A DNA stretch of 64,000 nt from the human T2T-CHM13v2.0 reference genome, Homo sapiens. Positions within the stretch are counted from its first letter, which is position 1, and each line of letters starts with the position of its first letter. A program made the position numbers and the translations under genes. The notes beneath the pieces were generated by a model that had not been told where the DNA came from, did not search any database, and saw only the letters and a list, made by a program, of their open reading frames with translations. Positions 14,897 to 32,490 of this stretch are shown in pieces. The DNA is taken from assembly GCF_009914755.1 (NCBI RefSeq), contig NC_060934.1; one strand, written 5' to 3'.

Positions 14897-15089
14897 CCAA
14901 TGTTAAAAAAATAAAATTGCATACTTCCTATAAACTGAAAAATGAAACCTATAGCCATGTATTTCCTTGAATCGTTTTTATGTAATCTGGATTTTTCAAA
15001 TTATTTTTTTTATTTTTTTAAACCATGGTCCAGAAAATCTACTTCTAAACTATACATTTTGAATCAATAAACTGACTTTTGTGCTTCAA

Positions 15090-15345
15090 GTAAACTTATT
15101 TTGAAATAATTTTAGATTTACAAGATAGATACAAAAATAGTATAGACTTCCTATACACCCTTCATCCAGTTGTCCATAAAGTTAAACATCTTACATAACC
15201 ACAGGACATTTGTCAAAACTAAGAAATTAACATTGATTAATTTCTAATTGATTACTATTAACTATAGACTTCATTTATATTTCACCTGTTTTTCTACTGT
15301 CTTTCTTTAGTTCCTAGGTATAACCCAGGGTACCATATTGCATTT
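15090..15345 (-). mobile_element. L1M 3' end fragment
   Basis: ttattttgaaataattttagatttaca...tatacacccttcatccag. Confidence 0.7.
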
Positions 15346-15959
15346 AATTATTTTTTCTAATGCTCTAAATTTTGCTACATGCCATACTTCTATGTCTTAT
15401 AAACAATATCTTCATTGTAATTATTATACAAATAAGCCTAAAATTCCCTGGGAAATATGATTTGTTAGCTATTAGGGAAATGTTACATGAAGATTCATGT
15501 AAATGTGATATTTCTACAAATGTTATACTGAAGAGAAAAGAGTTAATTGCTGAAGTAAGATATGCCCCACTGTCTACTTTGCCAGGAACCTATGAGATCA
15601 AATTACTTAATGTTTCAGAAATCTCTCTTCAAAAAATGCTTGTCACTTACCTATATCCCAAGGCTCCTGTAGAGTCATAAGATATACCGTAAATCCTTTT
15701 AATTAATTCTGTAACAATACAAAGTATTATTATAATCATATTCAGATAATCCATTTTCATCAAATATATGTAAAAGGTGCCTTCTTTTCAAGTTTCATTT
15801 TTAATTACTGTATATTTTTATTAAGATAATAAAAGAACTAATGTAGAAGAAAATAATTCCATAGTTGATTACATGTCTTTAGTTTAAAAATGAAAGCATG
15901 CAAAATTTAATAAAAGTTTTAAGATAAATAGAAAATGTTCCAGAAAAAAAGAAATGCCA

Positions 15960-16125
15960 CAATGAATAAAACTGGCTAAGAAGAATGCTTCACATTCTTT
16001 TCCATGTGCATAATACTGTGGAAATTAGTAAACAGTCACAAACAAGTGATTCATATTCAGGGCGCAGCCTTTTTGACAGGAAAACAGTAATCAAGAGTTT
16101 GGGATTTGAAGATTTTTAAAAGGAC
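15960..16125. promoter_or_regulatory. Candidate enhancer (forkhead/AP-1/ETS cluster)
   Basis: GTAAACA 16028-16034, ACAAACA 16038-16044, TGATTCA 16047-16053 and CAGGAA within ~60 bp of unique sequence. Confidence 0.35.
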
Positions 16126-17166
16126 ACATGTCTAGTAAAGTGTGTCAGTTTGCCTGAGACAGTCCCAATTTACGGCCATTGTCCCAGTGTCCCACAAATT
16201 TACCATTTGTCCTGGATTTTTCATTTTCTAATGATTTTTTTTAATGATAGCATTAAAATATGCTAAGACTTACTTGTACTTTTAGGCTCTGCCATAATCT
16301 CATTGAGCCATGTGTGAGATGCATGTGCAATGAAGCCAGTTGTCAATTTCGCAACTTGCTTAAATCTTTAAGACACCTAGCAGTAACCCATTTCTAAATG
16401 TACTAAATGTACTGTAACTGATACTTCATTCTTAAAGACAGCACCCAGGCACCATGCAGAAAAAGTATACCTAGGCAGGAGCAGGTAGGGACAGCTAACT
16501 CCTCCAGTCTTGAATGAAGGTAGAAGAAATACTGAATACTGCTCCCTGCTCATGGCTAGCTTAAAGACACGGATTTAATGAAAGCAGACAGGACAGAGAA
16601 AGTGTTTTACGTATTATTCTCTAAAGCATGACTTTTCATCTAGATCCAATGACTTTTTAAAAAAATGCACTTAGTTCTGATTCTAAAGCGTCTCTTTTAC
16701 ATCATCAAAGTAAAGTGAAAACTGGTTGGCTCCATTAACAGAAAAACTCACAGTTAAATGTTGCCAGCTTTCTGTCAGCATCAGGAGATGTACCAACCAG
16801 AAAAATCAGTTAATTCCAATAATGGTTTGATGATTTCATCTAATTCATGAAACCAAAGTAAAGCTTTTGGAAGTTCATTCTGTAGAATATGAAACACTTG
16901 ACATTGCTTTAATTGCTACTTAAAAATCAGTTTAGAAGTTCAACAACAAAGACAAAATTACCGTTGGTTCTCCTTATTCACAGTAGTTAAGTTCTATGAA
17001 GTCACCATGAACACTGAATTAGGGAATACCAAACTGTTTACTCATAAGGGAAATTCAGGGTTGGGTTCCTGAGAGCTCCTGAGAGCCTCTGATTACATTT
17101 TAATTAGCTGATCAAACATAACCTCATTTTATGTATATTTCTGTTTCAAGATACCTTATTAATATA

Positions 17167-17496
17167 TAGTCATCCACTGCATGATGTGTCAGTCAACAAC
17201 AGACTGCATATATGATGGAGGTGGTCCCATAAGATTATCAAGCTATATTTTCACTGTACATTTTCTATGTTTAGATAAATAAATATTTACTATTGTGTTA
17301 CAATTGCCTACGAATTCAGTATAGTAACACACTGTACAGGTTTGTAGCCCAGGAACAAGAGGCTATACCAAATAGCCTACGTGTATAGTAAGCTATAGAT
17401 TCATATCAGTACACTCTATGATACTTTCACAATGACAAAATCACCTAATGATACATTTCTCAGAATTTAACCCTGTTGTTAAGCAATGTATGGCTG
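17167..17496 (+). mobile_element. Tigger3a-like MITE
   Basis: agtcatccactgcat...ggtggtcccataagattat...gttaagcaatgtatggctg. Confidence 0.8.
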
Positions 17497-17865
17497 TTCA
17501 CTGTTGAGTCACTAACACTGAACTCATAGCCAACAGCACTATAAGTTTATCTATCACATGCATTTTCTCCTTAAGGCACATCACAGCCTTCTTGCACTTA
17601 GGCGCAATATACAGCACTTCAGTTCCACACTGGGTAGTCATTTTAAACACAGAAATCATAAGCCTAAAAAAGCAAAAATCATGGCACTATATAAACCACA
17701 AAAAGGAGACTTGTTTACCGTATGAGAGCTGAAGGAAATCAGCTTGTCAACTAGGAATGTGTTGAGCAATCCAAATTTTTCACCATTCTGTACCATTTGC
17801 AGTCATGCACTCAGTTGAATGCCTAGTGTCATGAGTATTGATTTTGCAGTTACAAATAAATTTTA

Positions 17866-18117
17866 TAGGTTCAGTATCCCTTACCCTGAAATGTTTGGGG
17901 TCGGAAGTGTTTTGAATTCAGAGTTTTTAAAAATTTTGAAACATTTGCATTATATACTTATTGAGTATCCCTAATCCAAAAATCTGAAATCCAAAATGCT
18001 CCCATGAGTATTTCATTTGCGCATGACCCTTGAGGATTGTGTTGAGCATCATGTTGGCACTCAAAAAGTTTAGGATTTTAGAGCATTTCTGATTTTAGAT
18101 CAGAGATGCTCAATCTG
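17866..18117 (+). mobile_element. Tigger4b/MER46-like MITE
   Basis: TIRs aggttcagtatccct / agatgctcaatctg, TA flanks. Confidence 0.8.
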
Positions 18118-18454
18118 TAGTAAGCAGACGAATTCATGAAAACAAAATCTGTGAATAATAAGGGTCAATTCTATTTGTTTTTACAGTGATAACACAATTA
18201 CAAACCTTGGTTGAGTACAGCATCATAGAAAGAACAATGTTCTTACTAAATTTAAAAAATGGTGAAACAGAAATAAACTTGGACTTGGCTGTGGTTCACA
18301 TATAATTCACAGCTGTGCCCAAAACTGCAATATATTACCAATCAAAATTGGGGGAAACATATTTTACAACTGAATCCACAAAAGATGTGACATTCTACCA
18401 ATTAAAATTTACAAACGTTTATACACACACACAGGGTTAAAAAAATTGAACTAA

Positions 18455-18617
18455 GGCTGGGTGTGGTGGCTCACACCTGCAATCCCAACATTTTGGGAGG
18501 ACGAGATGGGAGGATTGCTTGAGCTTGGGTGGTCAAGGCTGAAGTAAGCTGTGATCACACCATTGCACTTCAGCCTGGGCAACAGAGTACACCCCTGTCT
18601 CAAAAAAAAAAAAAAAA
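18455..18617 (+). mobile_element. Monomeric Alu (FRAM-like or left/right-arm recombinant)
   Basis: single ~145 bp unit plus poly-A. Confidence 0.85.
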
Positions 18618-18791
18618 CTAAAATATTTGTGACAAAGCTGATGCTGAATTAAAAAAAAAAAATTCCAGCATGATAGTCCATGTTTTCTTTTTGTTATCTA
18701 TCTTAGAATTCTTTGAGGCTTAGACTTTGCAAAATCATCAACATAACGGATGATTTTCATTCAAACATTACATTCAAAGTCAGTTGAAAAT

Positions 18792-19189
18792 AGCTATGGA
18801 CTAAACGTTTGTGTCACCTTAAATTCTTATGCTGAAGCCCTAATACCCAATGTGATGGTATTCAGAGGTAGTGCCTTTAATTAGCGTTAGATTAGGTCAT
18901 GTTGGTGGGGCCCTCCTGATGAGATTAATGCTGTTATAAAAAGAAACAGATCTCTCTCTCTCTCCCCACCCACCACCCCCCATCCAAGTGCACACACCCA
19001 GGAAGGGCCATGTGAGGACATAATGAGAAGATCAAACCAGGTCTGCAAACCAAGAAGCAGGCCCTCACCAGAAACTGATCTGCTGGTGCCTTGATCTTTG
19101 ACTTTCCAGCCTTCCGAACCGGGAGAAATGAATTGTTGTTTAAGCCACCCAGTATGTCATATTTTGAGAGAGCAGCCCAAACTAAGACA
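18792..19189 (+). mobile_element. MLT1A-type solo LTR
   Basis: gctatggactaaacgtttgtgtc...tttaagccacccagt...gcagcccaaactaagaca. Confidence 0.85.
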
Positions 19190-19507
19190 GAAATCTTTTA
19201 TTCAAGATTTAATTTTTATGGCGAACTTACTTTTTTACTTAAATAAGTTTATATTATGTACTAGAATAAAATGAACTTGAGAATGCCTACAATTTAGCAG
19301 CATCTAAATTTGGTTAAGATGTTTAAAAGATTTCCATAATAGACACAATTTATTTGACAAGTTTGTCATAAAAATTTTATTGAATAAAGGTGCTGTAAAT
19401 CGAGTTTACTGTTTTTTTTAATAGTAGCTTTGAAAATGTATGTGCTAGAATATTTACATATTAAACTATTACAAAATAAAATTTAATAGAATTTGCTTTG
19501 AACTTAC

Positions 19508-19626
19508 CAGGTACCTCATTATCGACATAGAGATTACATTCTCAAATTTAAAAATCACAATTTATATAGAAAACAGTAACTTGAAAAAAATCAATAATTT
19601 CAAATGTAGCAATCACAAAATGCAAC
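19508..19626 (-). other. Candidate 119-nt (likely non-coding) internal exon
   Basis: minus strand gtctttttcag|GTTGCA...GTACCTG|gtaagt. Confidence 0.45.
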
Positions 19627-19721
19627 CTGAAAAAGACTACAATTTTATGAAGCAATTAAAGATAAAATACAACCGTATTTTTAAAATTTTTTTTCCAGGA
19701 AAATACAGAGAGCTGTATTCT

Positions 19722-20598
19722 GTGGAGCTCCTTAGTACTTTCTAATCTCCCTTATGTAGTATATTATTAGTCAGGGTTCTCCAGAGAAAGAGAGAGATAA
19801 CAAGATTATAATTATTGTACCTAATAAATATATTAGTACAAATTATAGCTAAGAAACTAAATAATGTAAGCTTTTACTGAGAATTATATTTACGCTATTT
19901 TTAATGTTAAAACAGTTTTGCTTTAATGAATATAGCTATATGTTAATATGTTTTAGAAATAACTTTATTTTTAAAATAATTTCTTAATAGGACTATTTTA
20001 TAGGTTCGCCAATATGATGAAACCAATTTGTCAGTCAAGCAATAAAATTATATAAGTTTACAGTTTTTTAGAAAGAATATCAATTTTGGCAATAAACAGT
20101 TAACCTAGATGTGACAGTTAATTTTATGAGTCACTTTGGATAGGTTATGATGGCCAGCTGTTTGGTATAACACTAATCTAGATGTTGTGTGAAGGTCTCT
20201 GTGGATGTAATTAACATTTATAATTAGTTGACTTGAAATAAAGCAGACTCCATACTGTGGTGGGCCTTATTCAATCAGATGAAGGCCTCAACAGCTAAGA
20301 TAAAAGTTACCTGAAAAAGAGGCAAGTCTACATCAAGATGGTAACATAGAAATGCTGAGTTTCCAGCCTACTAGCCTATTTTGCAATTTTTACACTCAAG
20401 ACCATTACCAACTCTTACTTAAGTATATAGCCTGCTGCTGTATTCTACATGTTTGATTTGCCAACTCCCAAAATCCTGTGAGCCAATTCCTTAAAATAAA
20501 CTCTATATCTTTCTCTTGTTCTCTCTCTGTTTCTCTGGAGAACCCTGACTAATAATATACTACGTAAGGGAGATTAGAAAGTATTTAAGGAGCTCCAC
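19722..20598. repeat. Inverted duplication: arms 19722-19805 and 20514-20598, 708-bp spacer
   Basis: hand alignment: ~85 bp with 4 substitutions and 1 indel, including a 34-bp perfect block. Confidence 0.95.
20110..20554 (+). mobile_element. MLT2 (ERVL) solo LTR
   Basis: tgtgacagttaattttatgagtca...ctgtttctctggagaaccctgactaata. Confidence 0.85.
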
Positions 20599-20999
20599 CA
20601 AAAGGAAGCTGCTCCCTGATAAGAGTAGAGAGAAAGGGTTTTATTTTAAGAAACATGCAAGTAAAGAAGAATTAACATTAGCATTAACTTCTTTTAAAGA
20701 AGAACAGAATCCCAGATTCTATGGCCACATCTTCCTATACCAGAATGATACATAACCCAATAACCCTGACCCTTAGCTTTCAGAGAACAGGGACATATCT
20801 TACATCTCTTTGTATCCCCTTTCTAGCAGTGAGTGTGAGACAGAGAAGATGCTCTAAATGGTTGCTGAATAAACTAAAGTCTCAGAAGACATCTCCAGTC
20901 CTAAATGTGATTAAGGGGGCGAGAATGTATGCAAAAATATGGATTTTAATGTTTTGAGTAGTATTGTGGTGTTGTCATTCTGAGACTGTTGTGTGTGCA

Positions 21000-22160
21000 C
21001 TATAGGATGAAAATACATAATTGTAGGACTTTCCAGTTCTATAAGCACTCATATCCTTGAAAACAGAGGAAAGAGATACAGAAAGAAGATTTAAACACAC
21101 TATCATCTCCACCATAGTCTCAAGTTTGAATTGGAAACACCAATATAAACTTATGAAATATTTTTATTTTATCTTCAATATGTGCACATACTTCTGATCT
21201 CTGTCTACAGAAAGGGCTGAGAGAAAACATGATCACCCCTTAAACAGTAGGGCTTCTAAGAGAAATAGCTGAATCTAGGACTCAGGAGCTAAGTTTAAGA
21301 GGCTTCCATTGGCCAAAGATGGAATAATTTGAGCTTCAGTGATGGTAATACTTGAAATGAATTAACTAATACGTTAAATTCTAAAAGTTCATAATAATAT
21401 TCTTAAAAAACTGGTCACCTTTAAGAGATGATAGAGAACCAATTCATTATCTTAAGAAATATATCAAAGGGAAAAAATCAAGAATTTATGTTACCTGTCT
21501 TTTGAGAACTCTGGGTAACTGAATAAGAAATAAGGACATGTATCTCTTTATAAAAATATTCCAATGAATAAATGAAAAAAATAAAAAGAATTAGAATGTT
21601 ACTATTTTTCAAACCTTAATGAACAAATAGATACAAATAATATGCATAAATGGCTGCTAAGATCACAAAAAAAGATGCAACCAAACATTGACAGTAGGTT
21701 ATCCAGACCAGCAGCCTCAGCCTCACTCAGATACTTGCCAGAAATACAAACCCTCAGGTCCAACCTCCAATCTCCTGAATCAGAAGGTTTGGGCATAGGA
21801 CCCAGTAATCTGCATTTTATTATTACAAGCCCACCAGGTGATTCAGAGGTATCCTAAACTTCATTAAATTCTATGTATAGAACTGCCAAAGGAATCAAAT
21901 CTGAGTCTGATCCAGTTCATGGACAGCTGCCAATTTATAGGAATTATAGAGGTCAGAGAAACGTGTGGATCTACACCACAAATACGCACACATTAAAATC
22001 CAGAATGTGGGAAATTCTACAGATCAAACCTCCCAGGTTCTTCAACAGGTAAACTGTATGAAACTTAAAGGGATGGAGAAGGAACGTAAAGATTAAGAAT
22101 CTATAAAGTAACCTGTATAGATTAAGAGAGATTGAAGATATATCTTTTTTTTTTTAATGA
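21000..22160 (+). mobile_element. L1MC/MD-like 3' region with a MER5-type insertion at ~21694-21860
   Basis: gccaaagatggaataatttgagc motif; MER5-like gaatcagaa...ggacccagtaatctgcatttt. Confidence 0.6.
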
Positions 22161-23384
22161 GCAAAACCAAGAGACAACTTCCAGAATGGAGGAATGAAGA
22201 GTGCCATAGAATTTCTCCCCAACAAAAACAATTTAACTGGAAAAAAAATTGTTTAAAACAACCACTTAAACTGGAAATTGTTTGAAGAGTATATAATAAA
22301 TGGAGAAACATGCATTCAAGAAAATATTCTAAATCTTGGTAAGAGCCTGTCAGTGGCATTTGAGCCATGACCTGCTCCCACCTTACCTCCCCTGCACCTC
22401 CAAGCTCTGACTTATGTCTTAGTCTGTTTTACTTACTCGAGAGCTCTAGTCCAGAAGGTCCGGTCAAGAATATGGGGGCTCCTTTTCCCCTCAGCTCCCA
22501 AGCTGGGGCTGCATTTTCACCCTGGTAGAACAAGCCACTGGCACTGTTCATTTTCCCTAGCCCTCTATGGTAGAGTTTCTATTCTGTAGAGGCACAGCTG
22601 AGAGGGCCAGGGCTTCCTTACTCTAGCCAGCCCTCATTTGTGGGGCAAAAGTTCTACTCTAGGTGCAGCAGGCTGAAAACACTGGGCTTCTATCACTCCT
22701 GGATCAACTTGCTGGTGGGGCAAAGGTTCCATATCCATAGGGGCAAGCCAAGAAGACAAGTGGCTAATGCCCATGCTCCCAACACCCTTTTATAGCAGGG
22801 GTGTCACTCTGGAAGAAGTGAGTCACTATTCCTGCCCCCAGTTTCTGTGCAGTGGTGCAAGGTTCTACCTGTGGGGAGATGCAGACTGGAGACAGCAGCC
22901 CTTAAGGACAAAAAGTTCCTCTGCTCTGTCTGAGGGAATTGACATAGTTAAGAAGGTGCTCATGGCCCCAGGATACAAGCAGCAACCAACAAATTAGGAC
23001 TATCAGAAGTTTAACAGAACTAGAAAAAGAGACAGCCAGCTCACAGTAAACACAGAGGTCAGGAAGGCTGTGCCCAAGTGGGAGGCTGCATCCACTTGAG
23101 CAATCAGAGCTTGATATGGGCACAAGCCACACAGATCAATTAAAAAAGGAAGCTTCACTGTCACTCGGGGGCTGAAGTATAACCTCTGATCAAACAGTGG
23201 CTGAACAATAAGCTCTTCTGCCCCAAGATCAACTCCTAGGAAGCCAGGCTTTAATATGAAAGTATCCCTGGCAGTTTACTAGACTGTGGGCATGCTCAAG
23301 GCTTGCTTCGCTCAGGAGTGACTGGGAATGAATAATCCAAGCTACTAATCTATGGCTGAACATGGGGCAAAACAAACTTCTTGC

Positions 23385-25979
<2,595 letters not shown>

Positions 25980-26030
25980 GATGCCATTAGGAGAAAAAAG
26001 AGGCAGAAATAATACTTAAAGAAATAATGA

Positions 26031-26340
26031 GGCTAGGCATGGCGGCTCACATCTGTACCTCCAGCATCTTGGGAGGCCGAGGTGGGAGGATTGCTTGAGC
26101 CCAGGAATTTGATACCAGCCTAGGAAACATGGTGAGACCCTGTCTCTATAAAAAATATTAAAAATTAACCAGGCAGGGTGAAACACACCTGTAGTTCCAG
26201 CTACTCAGGAGGCTGAGGTGGGAGGACTGCTTAAGCCTGCAGTGAGGTAGAGCCTGCAGTGAGCTGAGATCATGCCACTATACTCCAGCCTGGGTGAGAG
26301 AGTGAGACCCTATCTCAGAGAGAGGAAAAAAAAAAATGAA
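26031..26340 (+). mobile_element. AluJ
   Basis: J-type dimer with a small internal duplication agcctgcagtgag x2. Confidence 0.92.
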
Positions 26341-28797
26341 TGAAAAAGAACAAAAAATAAATAAATAATGGTTGAAATCTTTCCAAATTTGATAAAAGAA
26401 AAAGAAATATGAATCTACACATCCCCCAAGGAGCTCAACAAATTCTAAATAGGATAAATACAAAGAGATATACTTCCAGACACATTACAGGCAAAATCTT
26501 GAGAGCCAAAGACAAGGAGAAAATCTTGAAAGCAGCAAGAGCAAAATGACCAGACAAGTACAAAGCAGCCCCCAATACGATTAACAGCTGACTTCTCATT
26601 AGAAACAAGGGAGGCCAGAAAGCAATGGAATTAAATATTCAAAGTACTAAAGTAAAATACTGTGAATTATGACTCTAATATCCAGCAATACTGTGTTTTT
26701 AAAATAAAGGTCAAATTAAGGCATCCCCAGAAAAATAAAGACAGAAAATTTGTTGCTAGAATATCTGTTTCACAAGAAATACTAAAGGAAATTCTTCAGG
26801 CTAAAAGCAAGTAACACCAAACAGTAATTGGAAGCCCCAAAAAACAAAGCATGCCAGTAAAGGAAATTACGTACATTATTGCAAAAGACACTGTAATTGC
26901 ATATTTCTTCCCCTTTCTTCTCTTAACTGATTTAAAGAATAATTCAATAAAACACTGTAGCTATAATTTAATTATTGGGCTAACAACATTTACTGCTATA
27001 CATTTAGACAATAACAGCACAAAAGAAGCAGGTGAGAACAAAGTTCTTCGGGAGTAAGAAAATGACCCCAGAGCTAACTCAAATATGCAGAAATATGTAA
27101 AGAAAATAAAAAATAGAGAGGTCAATACAACTAACTATAAATACGTACTTGCTCTCCCTTGTCTCAGCTTCTTCAAAAGACATAAAGTAAAAATTACAAC
27201 AGTGTGTTGTTGGGTTTGACATAATAGGTACATCAATAATAGCAGAAAAAGTTGGGGAAGGAAATGGAGCTAACAGAGGAAGTCTATTTTGCTGAAAGTA
27301 AGTATAAATCAGAAGTGAAATTCTTATAAATCGGGATGTACACTGTAAACCCTGGAGCAACCACTAAGAAAATAACTCAAAATATATATTTTTAAAAGTA
27401 GCAAAGGAATTAAAGCATCACACTACAATATATCTACTTAATTCAAAAGAAGGCAAGAAAGGAAAGAACAAAAAAGACCTGAGACCTATAGAAAACAAAA
27501 TTCGTAACTGCAGACAAAAATCCAACTATATCAGTAATCACATTAAATGTGAACAGATGAAGCAATCTAATCAAAAGAAAGATTATCAGGCTGTATTTTT
27601 ATAAAAGAAAAAGAACAAAGATCCCAACTATATAAAATCTACAGAAGACACATTTTAGGTTCAATCATACAAATAGGTTGAAAGTAAAAGCTATACCATA
27701 CAAACAGTAAACATAAAAGAATCAGGCAAAATACATTTTAAAGCAAGAATATAATACTAGAAATAAAGAGAAACACTTCATAATGACAGAAGGGTCAATC
27801 CATCAGGAAGGTATAACAATTAGAAGCATATATGCACTTAACAAGAGAAGGAAGAAAAGACAGTTGAAGGGATACACAATTGAAAAATAATAATTGGAGA
27901 CTTCCCTCTTTCAATACTAGATAAAACCATCAGGAAGAAAATCAACAAGAATACAGAAGATTTGAACAACACTGTAAGACAGCCAGACCTACAGACAACT
28001 ATATAACACTCCACTCAACAAGGCAATATGCATTATTAAGTGCACATGAAACATTTTCCAAAAGAGACCACATGCTAGGCCATAAACAACCTTCAATAAT
28101 TTAAAGAGATTAATCACACAAAGAATGTTCTCTGAAACAATGGCATGCAATTAGAATACAAATCAGTAACAGAAGGAATTTTAGGAAATTCACAAAGATG
28201 GGAGGGAACCACACTCCTAAATAACCAATGGGTCAAAGAAATCAGAGAGAAAATTAGAAAATACCTTGAGATTAGTGAGAACTAAAACTCAACATACCAA
28301 AATTTATTGGATACAGCTAAAGAAAATAATACCCAGAAAGACATTTGTAGCTATAAATGCCTATATTAAAAAAGAAAGATCTCAAGTGGATAATCTAATC
28401 TTCCACCTTAAGACAGAACCTACAAAAAGAAAAGCAAACTAAACCTAAGCAAGCAGACGGAAGGAAATAATAAAGAATAATGTACAAACAAATGAAACAG
28501 AGAATGGAAAATCCAGAAAACAAAGACACTGGCAAAGGATTTGGGAATCAGGTGGTTATTGCTGTTGATAGAAAGGAAGGTTCTTATTAGGAGGAACAAA
28601 ATCCAGATTGCAAGGAATTTAAGGAATAAATGGGAGGGGAAAAAAATGAAGGCAGCATATGCAGACTCTTCTTTCAATAAGCCTGAAGAAAAAGAATGAG
28701 AAGACTGAAAATGAACGCAAAAAGAAATTATTAACAAAGTCTTCTAAGAGGCAGAAAGGAATTAAAGCTCTAGGCAAATAAATTGGCCTTGGAAGAT

Positions 28798-29357
28798 ACG
28801 GCAGACACTAGTGGTTGCCTACCTAGTCTTCCCTTCTTTCTGAATAACAAAATCCTATTTTTTTTTTTTTTTTACCTTGGGAGGAGTGAAGGGCCATGAA
28901 TCTTGACTAGTCTAAGCCAAACACAGGACTTCCGTACCCCTCACCACTGACTGGCTTAGAAACGGGTATAGGATGCAATTTTAGCTAATGAGGTCATGTT
29001 TTCTAGGAGGCTTCTAAGAAAGTTTTCTTCATTTTAAAAAAAGACATAAGAGAGACACCTTCTTTTCTTACAGTCATGGGTGCTTTGATATGAGTATGTC
29101 ATTCTTGGAGTTAAAGCTGCCATCTTGAGATGAGGAGGGGAAAAGTCTGAAGACAAAAGCCAACTTATCAGGATGGTAGAATGAAAAGACAGAGCCAGAG
29201 AGTCTGATGATAAGAGTTAGCTGCTATATAAGCCAACAAAAAAACTATCTTTCTTCCAGATTTCTAGTTATATGAGACAATAAAATGCAGTTATTACATA
29301 CGATACTTTCAGTTGGGTCTCTGTCACTTACCAGCTGAAAGCATTCTAACTGATATA
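28798..29357 (+). mobile_element. Old MLT1 (J/K-like) solo LTR
   Basis: ggcagacactagtggttgcc...ctgactggcttagaaacggg...cagctgaaagcattctaactgatata. Confidence 0.7.
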
Positions 29358-29540
29358 GAAAGAAAGATACTTTCACAAGACAGATGTGGATGAAATTAAC
29401 TTTGCATGTTGGAGATAAGGGAATTTGAGAGTTTCAGCCTAAAGTTTCATTTATTAAAGAAAATGAAACTCATATAGATCCATTTTACAAAGGGAGTGAC
29501 CTTAACAGCTGCTGTTTCTTGCTTTAAAATATCAAGTATT

Positions 29541-29869
<329 letters not shown>

Positions 29870-30659
29870 TTACTAATGATAACAATAGCTAGTAATGAAG
29901 ACGATTATGATCATAAGCTCATGGTTATTAAAGTATTTTTAAAGCTAGGTATTTTATCCTTTATTGTTTACCTTCTGCATTCTATTTGACTTCAATAGTG
30001 AAAACACACCGATCTCTTTTACTTTCTGTTTATAACAATTTTCATGGCAGTTTCATTTTTCATACTTTCATGGTATATAACACAGTATACCATGATATAG
30101 TTTACAGAGGGAATCCTTAACTTTGAAGAACAAACACTTTGAAAACTAAACAATTTATAAAAAGATTTCTCTATTTCCATACACTTTCTGAATCTGGTCA
30201 AGAAAATAAAACAACATTTCAACTGCATCTGTGCAATGATAGCTTTGATTCATATCAGAAGACGGAAAATCAACACTGTAGCCACATAGATACATACCAG
30301 AGAAAGCACACTTTTAACAGAAATAACAAAAAACACTAGAATTGTGCTCTTATCCAAGCGGTTCCCAAATGGAAAAAAAAAAATCTGAAAGTTAAATTGT
30401 AAGACAGCTTTTGAAGCCCAAAACATTTTTCCTATAGAAACAACATTACTATGAGTCATGTCATTACTAGGCCAGTCCATAAAAGCCTTGTAAAACCATA
30501 TGCATAAGACTGTTGTTTGAACTATACCAAAGTAGAATAACAGTTTTTCCTTGGGAAAATACATCATTTTCTCCCTCTTCTCTCTACTAAGTCCCAGAGG
30601 AGTGGGCCTCACCAGGGGCTCTGTTCACCTCTCGGAGCTCAGCAGTCATCTCCCTCACT

Positions 30660-32490
30660 CTGACACTCCATGGTGAGCCACACTGAACTTCTCCAACCTG
30701 CAGGGCCTCTCCACTCCAAGTCATTACTGTTATGACCTTCCCTTCTTCTTCTTGTAGGTCACCACCACTCAGCCTTCTGGTCTCAGCTTAATGCTACTTC
30801 CTCAGGAAGGCCATCCCTTGTCTCCACACTGAGTCATGTGTTCCTGATGTGTGTGCTCTCACATGACACTATACTTTCCTAACACAGCATTTGTCAATCT
30901 CCCCCATAAGCTCCACTGTTTCAGGGATTCATTTCATTTGCTATTAATGTTAAGGTCAGAAGACTGCCTGGCATTTTGACGATTCTTTACACATATTTAT
31001 TTATATGAATGATTTCTCATAAGATACTTTAATCGTTTTTAACTTGATCTATGGTCATTACCAAGGAAAAGGGGGGGTTTCCAAAGAAGACTTCTCCTCC
31101 CCTCAATTTACACCTAGAGATTGTTCATAGGGAGGAAGCTACCTATCCAATTTCTTTCCCATTGCTGGTTTATAGTCACTTAAATGGACATTAAAATTTT
31201 AGCAAATAGGTATATTTTCTTTATTTGTCTTTTTAGAAGATGAGGCCTTTGAATGATGAAGGAATAGGTATATTTTCTAATATTAACTTTATCTCTTTTT
31301 TGTAGGTAATGTCACTCATTCTCATGACTTTTATGTCGGCAACGAAATGCTTATTCCCAAATTTGTGTCTCTATGCTTGATTTTTCTCTCAAGCTTAGAA
31401 TCCAAACTTTCAGCTGTCTACAATTTTTATACCTGAATGTCCCACAAAAACTTCACCCCATCCCCCTGCCCAAGCTTTCTTTTCTCTGGTATTCCCCATT
31501 TCAGGTATTTCAGATAATGACATCACCATCTAGCCAGCGGAGTCTCACACCCACGTTATCTCGTCCTTGTTAATTATTCACTGGACCATGGCCTAACAGT
31601 GTTGGCATCACTTGGGAGCAGAATCTGAGGCCCCACTGCCAGACCTATTGAATCAAAATCTACCTTTTAACAAAATCCCTAGACAATTCACATGCACATT
31701 AAAATCTGAGAAACACTGATGTATAATTCCTTTTTCTCTCTACCCCCACAAAACTCTGATACCAAGTCTACATAGGCAAATATATTCCCTCCCATCCATT
31801 TCTGTTATCATGGCCCTGATTAAGCCATCACTTCCTGTGGTGATGTGGAACACTGCAATGGCTTCTTAGCTGACCTCATTCCTGTAGCCCACTGTTCACC
31901 CAGACTTTTAGAAGGGACACTCTGATGTACAGCTATGAGAGGGCATATGGTTGGCTGGCCAGAACTGTGCATAATGTAAAGCCTGTCCTATCTATGTTAC
32001 AATTTAAAATCTGGGGATGCTCACAAAATTGTCACATAGAAAAGCATGCAAAAAAAAAAAAAACTTTTCTTGTGTTTCCTTGTTATAATCACTGATCTCA
32101 ATTTTCTTTCCAAATACAAACCTAATCATGTCATATCCCTCTCCAAAATCTTTTAGTGGCTTCTGAAGACATCATGTATTTCTACACTTCTACCTTTCTG
32201 TTCATGCTTTTCCCCTTTTCTCCTATCCATCTTGCAAAAATCTTGCCCATCTTCTAAAGTCCTGTTCGAGAGTTATCTTACCAGAGAACAGTCATCTCAT
32301 CTCACCAGCCCTCTTAAGAAATAACTGCTTCTCCATTCACTCTACAACCCATTGCACTCATTACAACACGATTACAACACTCATCTTGCTGTATGAAAGG
32401 CCCATGGATGTCTGTCTTTCCTGTCAGACAAGGACTTCCTTAAAGGAATTCTGTATTTCAGTCATTGGCAGATGGTAGATACTCAAAAAA
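30660..32490 (+). mobile_element. L2 fragments with a MER5A at ~31580-31720
   Basis: ctcaggaaggccatccct, acctgaatgtccca, ctaatcatgtca L2 motifs; cagacctattgaatcaaaatc...tgcacattaaaatctgagaaacactg. Confidence 0.65.

What the first reader, a model, noticed from the sequence alone, without database searches (positions are those of the whole stretch)
19722..20598. ~85-bp inverted duplication spanning an LTR end and its unique flank, beside a candidate splice acceptor
Seen: 19722-19805 is the reverse complement of 20514-20598 (~94% identical, 34-bp perfect core), with a 708-bp spacer. The copy includes both the MLT2 3' terminus and ~45 bp of non-LTR flank, so it is not two independent LTR insertions, and it is much younger than the LTR. 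Inference: a template-switch or micro-inversion scar that could support recurrent inversion of the spacer. In minus-strand pre-mRNA it would form a stable stem ending ~95 nt upstream of the 19626 acceptor and could modulate that exon.
Basis: partly seen in the sequence, partly recalled or inferred. Interest (0 to 1): 0.7.

Follow-up and report, generated by a model that had tools for sequence, protein, structure and literature searches.

The report
Inverted local copy of LTR edge
An 84-base piece spanning the edge of an ancient retroviral LTR and its neighbouring DNA was copied backwards into a spot about 0.7 kb away inside a ZNF438 intron, most likely as an ordinary copying-error scar with no sign of an inversion or an annotated function.

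Summary
The inverted repeat is real. Arms 19722-19805 and 20514-20598 differ by 4 substitutions and a one-base indel, share a 34-nt perfect run and lie 708 nt apart. Genome-wide, only these two places hold the whole 85-mer.

Arm 2 is the source. It continues an old solo LTR (20110-~20559) into about 39 nt of unique flank. None of 29 other copies of the LTR family runs into that flank.

Arm 1 is the copy. It sits inside an older AT-rich repeat whose two halves stay collinear and on one strand in 7 of 13 other copies examined. The spacer is therefore not inverted. This is an inverted, locally templated insertion, matching template-switch type 1-4-3-2. It is not a micro-inversion.

Arm divergence (K=0.049) is about one sixth of the LTR's distance to its nearest relatives (K=0.31). 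That suggests a primate-age event of roughly 10-50 Myr, on an LTR at least 70 Myr old.

The arms pair in the predicted pre-mRNA fold (z = -12). The nearby "acceptor" belongs to no exon in any of 55 RefSeq ZNF438 transcript rows. The name MLT2/ERVL rests on recall, because no repeat library was available.

The parts
20514..20598 (.). Arm 2, the source copy: the last ~46 nt of the LTR (20514-~20559) plus ~39 nt of unique flank (~20560-20598)
   Evidence: It is contiguous with the LTR body; alignments of other family copies cross 20513/20514 without a break (e.g. L002 20110-20553, L019 20108-20552). The flank occurs nowhere else in the reference.
19722..19805 (.). Arm 1, the inverted copy of arm 2: flank-derived ~19722-19760, LTR-end-derived ~19761-19805
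   Evidence: 94% identical to arm 2 over its whole length. 8 of 29 family copies match only 19757/19767-19793, and 0 of 29 enter 19722-19756. GC is 0.38, inside DNA of GC 0.21-0.24. It interrupts an older repeat.
19806..20513 (.). 708-nt spacer: the right part of the older AT-rich repeat (19806-~20102) followed by the LTR body (20110-20513); not inverted
20110..20559 (+). Old solo LTR. Recalled as MLT2-type, ERVL/ERV3; the name and the '+' orientation are not tool-verified. The right end is uncertain by a few bases.
   Evidence: 659 first-look candidates in the genome, of which 40 were scored. 23 of 29 fetched copies start aligning at 20102-20112; 12 of 29 reach 20548-20562 and none passes 20562. 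No partner LTR lies in the 64-kb window. It starts with TG at 20110. AATAAA sits at 20495-20500 on the + strand, and I saw no such hexamer on the - strand (read; weak support for orientation). A possible 5-bp target duplication, 20105-20109 against 20560-20564, matches at 3 of 5.
19179..20102 (.). Older AT-rich interspersed repeat (family not named here), interrupted by arm 1 and abutted by the LTR
   Evidence: The two blocks on either side of arm 1 match 7 of 13 other genomic copies on the same strand and in the same order, at 58-77% identity.
19508..19626 (-). Unannotated candidate pseudo-exon (119 nt) with a pyrimidine-rich AG acceptor and a GTAAGT donor, 95 nt downstream of arm 1 in the transcript
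   Evidence: Minus-strand sequence. No RefSeq exon here: 0 of 55 ZNF438 transcript rows.

Best explanation
This is the scar of one inverted, locally templated insertion. The proposed order of events is as follows. An ancient solo LTR (20110-~20559) landed next to an older AT-rich repeat. Much later, during replication or break repair, a growing DNA end at about 19721 switched to the opposite strand roughly 0.8 kb away. It copied 84-85 nt backwards across the LTR edge and its unique flank (20598 down to 20514), then returned to its original template at what is now 19806. The result is L - arm1(inverted copy) - unchanged spacer - arm2(source) - R. In the four-point template-switch model this is event type 1-4-3-2, which creates an inverted repeat without inverting the spacer. 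Shown here: the repeat itself, its uniqueness in the genome, the LTR/flank boundary, the continuity of arm 2 with the LTR, the collinearity of the older repeat across arm 1, and the low divergence between the arms. Inferred: the enzymatic route (replicative switch or break-repair synthesis), the date (about 10-50 Myr), and neutrality. The only predicted consequence is an ~80-bp duplex in the ZNF438 intron RNA. I judge the element most likely neutral.
For: Only two places in the genome hold the whole arm. The flank is unique. 0 of 29 LTR copies extend past 20562 or into 19722-19756. Family alignments cross the spacer/arm 2 junction without a break. 7 of 13 copies of the older repeat match both sides of arm 1 on the same strand and in the same order. 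In 6 of those 7 the window carries extra DNA between the blocks (54 to 324 nt, computed from the coordinates). In 5 of 7 global alignments a long window-only gap overlaps arm 1. Arm 1 has GC 0.38 inside DNA of GC 0.21-0.24. Arm distance is K=0.049, against a mean pairwise K=0.309 between the LTR and 29 relatives. Where the arms differ, arm 2 carries the commoner family base at both LTR-derived sites (16 of 23 and 11 of 23 copies). Type 1-4-3-2 events are described in print (PMC5453318, passages). Copied fragments up to 128 nt are reported in great apes (PMC7954356, passages).
Against: No outgroup genome could be read, so the state before insertion is inferred, not seen. The older repeat copies are 58-77% identical, and no alignment shows a clean 84-nt gap: L040 shows none and L042's gap lies just after arm 1. 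The copied fragment (84 nt) is far above the published median of 12. The donor lies about 0.7-0.8 kb away, outside the +/-100-nt range that study searched. I found no clear microhomology at either junction (0-1 nt, read). The date rests on 4 substitutions (Poisson 95% range 1.1-10.2). All 3 differences that can be polarised lie on arm 1 (plus a CpG argument), so some may date from the copying itself.
Confidence: 0.75

Rival explanations
1. Micro-inversion of the spacer with duplicated, inverted breakpoints (staggered breaks), or an inverted repeat that still supports recurrent inversion by homologous recombination.
For: Inverted repeats can mediate inversion. Events with less than 50 bp of matching sequence between nearby repeats are on record (PMC2583991, passages).
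Against: The spacer is co-oriented with both of its neighbours: with arm 2 through LTR continuity, and with the left flank through the older repeat. The arms are 84 nt with a 34-nt longest perfect run, against processing segments of 134-232 bp and 300-500 bp. A preprint abstract (10.1101/2021.12.20.472354, search listing only) states that about 85% of human inversions under 2 kb arise by L1 twin priming, which does not apply here.
Confidence: 0.05
2. An old inverted duplication, made soon after the LTR inserted, whose arms have been kept alike by gene conversion.
For: Nearby inverted copies can convert each other. Dating from 4 substitutions is weak.
Against: No decayed homology lies beyond the sharp arm ends: 4941 of 5000 shuffles (inner) and 958 of 5000 (outer) reach the observed score. 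An old longer duplication with a converted core would leave such traces. The arms still differ at 5 sites spread along their length.
Confidence: 0.08
3. A selected RNA element: the 80-bp stem in ZNF438 pre-mRNA regulates use of the candidate exon 19626-19508, or acts as an editing or small-RNA substrate.
For: The arms pair in both the minimum-energy and the centroid fold of the 941-nt minus-strand RNA (z = -12; 0 of 20 shuffles fold as well). Duplex energy is -133 kcal/mol with 80 of 85 positions paired. The candidate exon has an AG acceptor and a GTAAGT donor. 53 of 55 ZNF438 transcript rows span the repeat as intron.
Against: 0 of 55 RefSeq transcript rows use an exon in 15709-22436. Rfam gives 0 matches at E<=1 over 19000-21200. 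The stem ends 95 nt from the AG, so it covers neither the acceptor nor the usual branch-point zone. No expression, editing or conservation data could be consulted. The 10 listed papers of 1,749 matching a ZNF438/editing/circRNA search (at least 2 of 5 terms) contain no occurrence of ZNF438.
Confidence: 0.06
4. The arms are terminal inverted repeats of a DNA transposon or part of a multi-copy composite repeat, or they are two independent LTR fragments.
For: Inverted arms with a ~0.7-kb interior look superficially like a small transposon.
Against: The whole arm occurs only at these two places in the genome. The flank part is single-copy apart from arm 1. The interior is a plain LTR body plus part of another repeat.
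Confidence: 0.02

Closest known systems
Short-range template-switch mutations, four-point model event type 1-4-3-2 / 3-2-1-4 (Loytynoja & Goldman 2017, PMC5453318; Walker et al. 2021, PMC7954356)
   Same: [quoted passage not shown] This creates an inverted repeat with an uninverted spacer and a potential hairpin. That type made up 31% of high-confidence human-chimp events.
   Different: Published events are short: median copied length 12, maximum 128. They were sought within +/-100 nt. Here the fragment is 84 nt and the donor lies 709-793 nt away. I could not see the supplementary figures that show all event types and length distributions.
Templated insertions made during double-strand-break repair (polymerase-theta end joining, 'snap-back' synthesis). 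Recalled; no paper read here.
   Same: Inverted copies of nearby sequence are inserted at a junction with little or no microhomology.
   Different: As I recall, such insertions are usually much shorter than 84 nt. Sequence alone cannot separate this route from a replicative switch.
Inversions flanked by inverted duplications from staggered breaks (described in Drosophila; recalled)
   Same: An inverted duplicate of a short breakpoint segment.
   Different: That mechanism inverts the segment between the duplicates. Here the spacer is not inverted.
Intronic inverted Alu pairs that form dsRNA edited by ADAR (PMC526178; search listing and start of abstract only)
   Same: An intramolecular long duplex inside a transcribed intron.
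   Different: The duplex is 80 bp rather than ~300 bp, is single-copy sequence, and has no editing evidence consulted.
Solo LTRs of ERVL (MLT2 group; listed as HERVL/ERV3 LTRs in Kojima 2018, PMC5753468, passages)
   Same: A dispersed ~450-bp family with shared ends, starting with TG, with no partner LTR nearby and high divergence.
   Different: No tool here holds named repeat models.

Membership tests
Solo LTR of an old ERVL-type (MLT2-like) family | Many dispersed copies sharing the same start and end | tested here: met
   659 first-look candidates, 40 scored. 23 of 29 fetched copies start at 20102-20112. 12 of 29 end at 20548-20562 and none goes further.
Solo LTR of an old ERVL-type (MLT2-like) family | TG...CA termini and a 5-bp target-site duplication | tested here: inconclusive
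   TG is present at 20110. The right end is degenerate with no clear CA. The candidate duplication 20105-20109 against 20560-20564 matches at 3 of 5.
Solo LTR of an old ERVL-type (MLT2-like) family | Match to a named MLT2 model (Dfam/Repbase) | not testable with these tools
   No repeat library is available. RefSeq's soft-mask rows carry no names and do not cover 19722-20598. The name rests on recall. Naming the subfamily needs a repeat library, not the inner genes, which I did not touch.
Solo LTR of an old ERVL-type (MLT2-like) family | No partner LTR or internal region alongside (solo state) | tested here: met
   Within the 64-kb window the LTR matches only itself and the 49 nt inside arm 1. 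The left neighbour is another repeat and the right neighbour is unique DNA.
Template-switch mutation, type 1-4-3-2 | A fragment present nearby is inserted as its reverse complement | tested here: met
Template-switch mutation, type 1-4-3-2 | Source left in place and spacer not inverted | tested here: met
   LTR continuity across 20513/20514. Collinearity of the older repeat across arm 1 in 7 of 13 copies.
Template-switch mutation, type 1-4-3-2 | Ancestral sequence without the copy, seen in an outgroup | not testable with these tools
Template-switch mutation, type 1-4-3-2 | Short range and short fragment, as in published sets | tested here: inconclusive
   84 nt is within the published maximum of 128 but far above the median of 12. 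The donor distance of ~0.7-0.8 kb is beyond the +/-100 nt that study searched.
Inversion with inverted breakpoint duplications / micro-inversion | Segment between the duplicates is inverted relative to both flanks | tested here: not met
Inverted repeats competent for recurrent homologous inversion | Uninterrupted identity of at least the minimal efficient processing segment | tested here: not met
   The longest perfect run is 34 nt, against 134-232 bp and 300-500 bp (PMC2583991).
Inverted repeats competent for recurrent homologous inversion | Both orientations found among haplotypes or species | not testable with these tools
DNA-transposon terminal inverted repeats | The arm sequence recurs at the ends of other copies in the genome | tested here: not met
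   Only 2 of 9 matched places hold the whole arm, and they are the two arms themselves.
ADAR-type intronic dsRNA | Long intramolecular duplex in a transcribed strand | tested here: met
   This is a prediction only. It is intronic in 53 of 55 transcript rows.
ADAR-type intronic dsRNA | Observed A-to-I editing | not testable with these tools
   No reads or editing catalogue are available.

The most novel reading that the evidence does not exclude
An unusually long (84-nt) and long-range (~0.8-kb) primate-age template switch created, in one step, an 80-bp double-stranded RNA in a ZNF438 5'-region intron. That duplex is now edited or processed, or tunes a silent 119-nt pseudo-exon 95 nt downstream. 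If so, this would be a de novo structured RNA born from an LTR edge.
Probability: 0.08. Interest if true: 0.4.

Novelty: new member of a known kind. Interest (0 to 1): 0.18.

Why it matters
It is a clean, datable example of a large inverted templated insertion. Two unrelated old repeats, the LTR and the AT-rich element, act as built-in markers of polarity and orientation. This shows the event was a copy and not an inversion, without needing an outgroup. It lies at the upper end of the size and distance ranges reported for template-switch mutations, and outside the +/-100-nt range that great-ape study searched. It warns that such events can be misread as micro-inversions. For ZNF438 itself, nothing points to a functional effect.

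Tried and rejected
Extension of the arms. The apparent extra similarity just outside the arms (about 17 nt, seen) is not beyond chance: 958 of 5000 shuffles reach the score. Nothing extends inside the arms either: 4941 of 5000 shuffles reach the score.

Base-precise mapping of the insertion site with copies of the older repeat. MAFFT and long-gap global alignments put extra window DNA around arm 1. They do not give a clean 84-nt gap, because the copies are too diverged.

Partner LTR or provirus: none in the window.

Transposon-TIR or composite-repeat reading: rejected, because the arm is a unique pair.

Known RNA families: 0 Rfam matches at E<=1.

Literature on this locus. One search (ZNF438 with editing, circRNA, cryptic exon and inverted repeat; 1,749 papers holding at least 2 of 5 terms; 10 listed) showed no listed paper containing ZNF438. 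This one search does not show the locus is absent from print.

PMC3961182 (passages) gave no minimum arm size for inversion-mediating repeats. PMC3836709 (passages) only told me that MLT2A1 and MLT2A2 are called primate-specific.

The substitution rates used for dating (0.5, 1.0 and 2.2 x 10^-9 per site per year) are recalled values, not from a call.

One search was a badly written script that printed a useless table.

Supplementary files of the two template-switch papers were not seen. They may bear on how unusual 84 nt and ~0.8 kb are.

Full report
**1. Observation**

The inverted repeat exists as described. The repeat finder gives an ungapped core at 19736-19805 / 20514-20583 (70 nt, 96% complementary, 708 nt between the arms). 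With a single one-base gap, the match covers 19722-19805 against the reverse complement of 20514-20598. That is 84 versus 85 nt, with 4 substitutions (2 transitions, 2 transversions), 1 indel and a longest perfect run of 34 nt.

A search of the whole reference with the 85-mer returned 9 places. Only two hold it end to end: the arm itself and arm 1 (94% identity, E = 7.8e-28). The other 7 match only query positions 12/13 to 42-52. The arm ends are sharp, with no similarity beyond chance either inside them (4941 of 5000 shuffles reach the score) or outside them (958 of 5000). Because the arms differ at 5 sites, an assembly fold-back artefact is not a credible source.

**2. The old virus remnant: is it real, how old, what family**

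The stretch 20110-20550 found 659 first-look candidates in the reference, of which 40 were scored. It matched them at 68-80% identity.

I re-aligned the 29 fetched copies, with their flanks, to the window:
- 23 of 29 begin at 20102-20112.
- 12 of 29 reach 20548-20562.
- None goes past 20562.

So a dispersed repeat about 450 bp long, with shared ends, lies at 20110-~20559. It starts with TG. It has AATAAA at 20495-20500 on the + strand, about 60 nt before its right end (read). A weak 5-bp candidate target duplication matches at 3 of 5. It has no partner in the 64-kb window. Its neighbours are another repeat on the left and unique DNA on the right. It is therefore a solo LTR.

Its substitution distance to the best segment of each of the 29 relatives is K = 0.309 on average (range 0.257-0.378). 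These relatives are the best-scoring ones, so this is if anything an underestimate for the family. On a star tree, and with recalled rates of 2.2 and 1.0 x 10^-9 per site per year, this gives about 70-150 Myr.

Print lists the MLT2 group as the LTRs of HERVL/ERVL (PMC5753468, passages). It calls only MLT2A1 and MLT2A2 primate-specific (PMC3836709, passages). The divergence here fits an older subfamily. Naming needs a repeat library. I did not use, and did not need, inner genes.

**3. Where the LTR stops inside the arms**

In arm 2, family homology ends at 20548-20562. In arm 1, 8 of 29 copies match only 19757/19767-19793, and 0 of 29 enter 19722-19756. A 101-nt query starting at the flank (20560-20660) found only itself.

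So each arm is about 46 nt of LTR end plus about 36-39 nt of single-copy flank. Two independent LTR insertions are excluded.

**4. Which arm is the original, and is anything inverted**

Arm 2 is continuous with the LTR body. Alignments of other copies run straight across 20513/20514, for example 20110-20553, 20108-20552 and 20110-20548.

Arm 1 lies in AT-rich DNA (GC 0.21-0.24 on both sides, arm 1 itself 0.38). That DNA belongs to an older interspersed repeat. Of 13 other genomic copies examined, 7 match the window on both sides of arm 1, on the same strand and in the same order: L032, L033, L038, L040, L042, L045, and L043 as a single spanning match. Three copies match the left side only and three the right side only.

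Between the two matched blocks the window carries more DNA than the copy in 6 of 7 cases: 199, 104, 86, 61, 324 and 54 nt. L040 has 201 nt less (computed from the coordinates). In long-gap global alignments, 5 of 7 copies show a window-only gap overlapping arm 1. L042's gap starts at 19805 and L040 shows none. No gap is a clean 84 nt, because the copies are only 58-77% identical.

The conclusion is that the left flank, the left part of the spacer, the LTR body and arm 2 all stand in their original relative orientation. Arm 1 is the added piece. The spacer is not inverted.

**5. Mechanism**

The layout is L - inverted copy - unchanged spacer - source - R. This is what the four-point template-switch model calls type 1-4-3-2 (mirror case 3-2-1-4). 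That type "creates an inverted repeat" and made up 31% of high-confidence human-chimp events (PMC5453318, passages).

In great apes the copied fragments had a median of 12 nt and a maximum of 128 nt, and donors were sought within +/-100 nt (PMC7954356, passages). This case, with 84 nt copied from 709-793 nt away, is at the long end for size and outside that search range for distance. I saw at most 1 nt of microhomology at the junctions. Sequence alone cannot separate a replicative switch from templated synthesis during break repair.

**6. Date of the duplication**

K between the arms is 0.049. With recalled rates of 2.2, 1.0 and 0.5 x 10^-9 per site per year this gives 11, 25 and 49 Myr. The Poisson range on 4 substitutions widens that to about 3-120 Myr.

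One caveat applies. At both LTR-derived differences, arm 2 carries the commoner family base (16 of 23 and 11 of 23 copies). The flank CpG is intact in arm 2 and decayed in arm 1. With all three polarisable changes on the copy, some may have arisen during the copying itself, which would make the event younger still.

**7. Consequences**

*RNA.* ZNF438 is on the minus strand. 53 of 55 RefSeq transcript rows span the repeat, always as intron. In the fold of the 941-nt minus-strand RNA, the arms pair in both the minimum-energy and the centroid structures (z = -12; 0 of 20 shuffles fold as well). As two separate strands they form a duplex of -133 kcal/mol with 80 of 85 positions paired. This is a plausible substrate for double-strand-specific enzymes, but no expression or editing data could be consulted.

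*Splicing.* The candidate acceptor is real as sequence: a pyrimidine run, then AG at 19628-19627, with a GTAAGT donor after 19508, defining a 119-nt pseudo-exon. However, 0 of 55 transcript rows have an exon anywhere in 15709-22436. The stem ends 95 nt upstream of the AG, clear of the acceptor. Rfam finds nothing in the region.

*DNA.* The longest perfect match is 34 nt. Minimal processing segments for homologous exchange are quoted at 134-232 bp in cultured cells and 300-500 bp in human meiosis. Rare exceptions below 50 bp occur between close repeats (PMC2583991, passages). Recurrent inversion is therefore unlikely but not excluded.

**8. Verdict**

This is a template-switch-type inverted local copy of an LTR edge plus its flank, of likely primate age, on a solo ERVL-like LTR that is probably older than the placental radiation. 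It is not an inversion scar. I find no evidence of function. It is a new example of a known kind of mutation, notable only for its size and reach.

Noticed in passing
window 19508-19626 (minus strand): A 119-nt candidate pseudo-exon with a pyrimidine-rich AG acceptor and a GTAAGT donor lies inside the older AT-rich repeat. No RefSeq ZNF438 transcript uses it (0 of 55 rows).
   Followed up: partly
window 19179-20102: An older, very AT-rich interspersed repeat (58-77% identical to other genomic copies) was not named here. Both the LTR and arm 1 landed in or next to it.
   Followed up: partly
window 15000-31000: The masked-repeat rows of the RefSeq table cover neither the LTR nor the older repeat; there are no rows between 18631 and 23687. 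That mask therefore misses old interspersed repeats and cannot be used to call DNA 'unique'.
   Followed up: no
window 19705-19721 vs 20604-20620: About 17 nt just outside the arms look loosely complementary and pair in the RNA fold, but the similarity is within chance (958 of 5000 shuffles). It could still be the homeology that guided the switch.
   Followed up: yes
window 20599-21100: The 502 nt to the right of arm 2 found no other match in the reference, so the LTR's right neighbour is single-copy DNA.
   Followed up: yes
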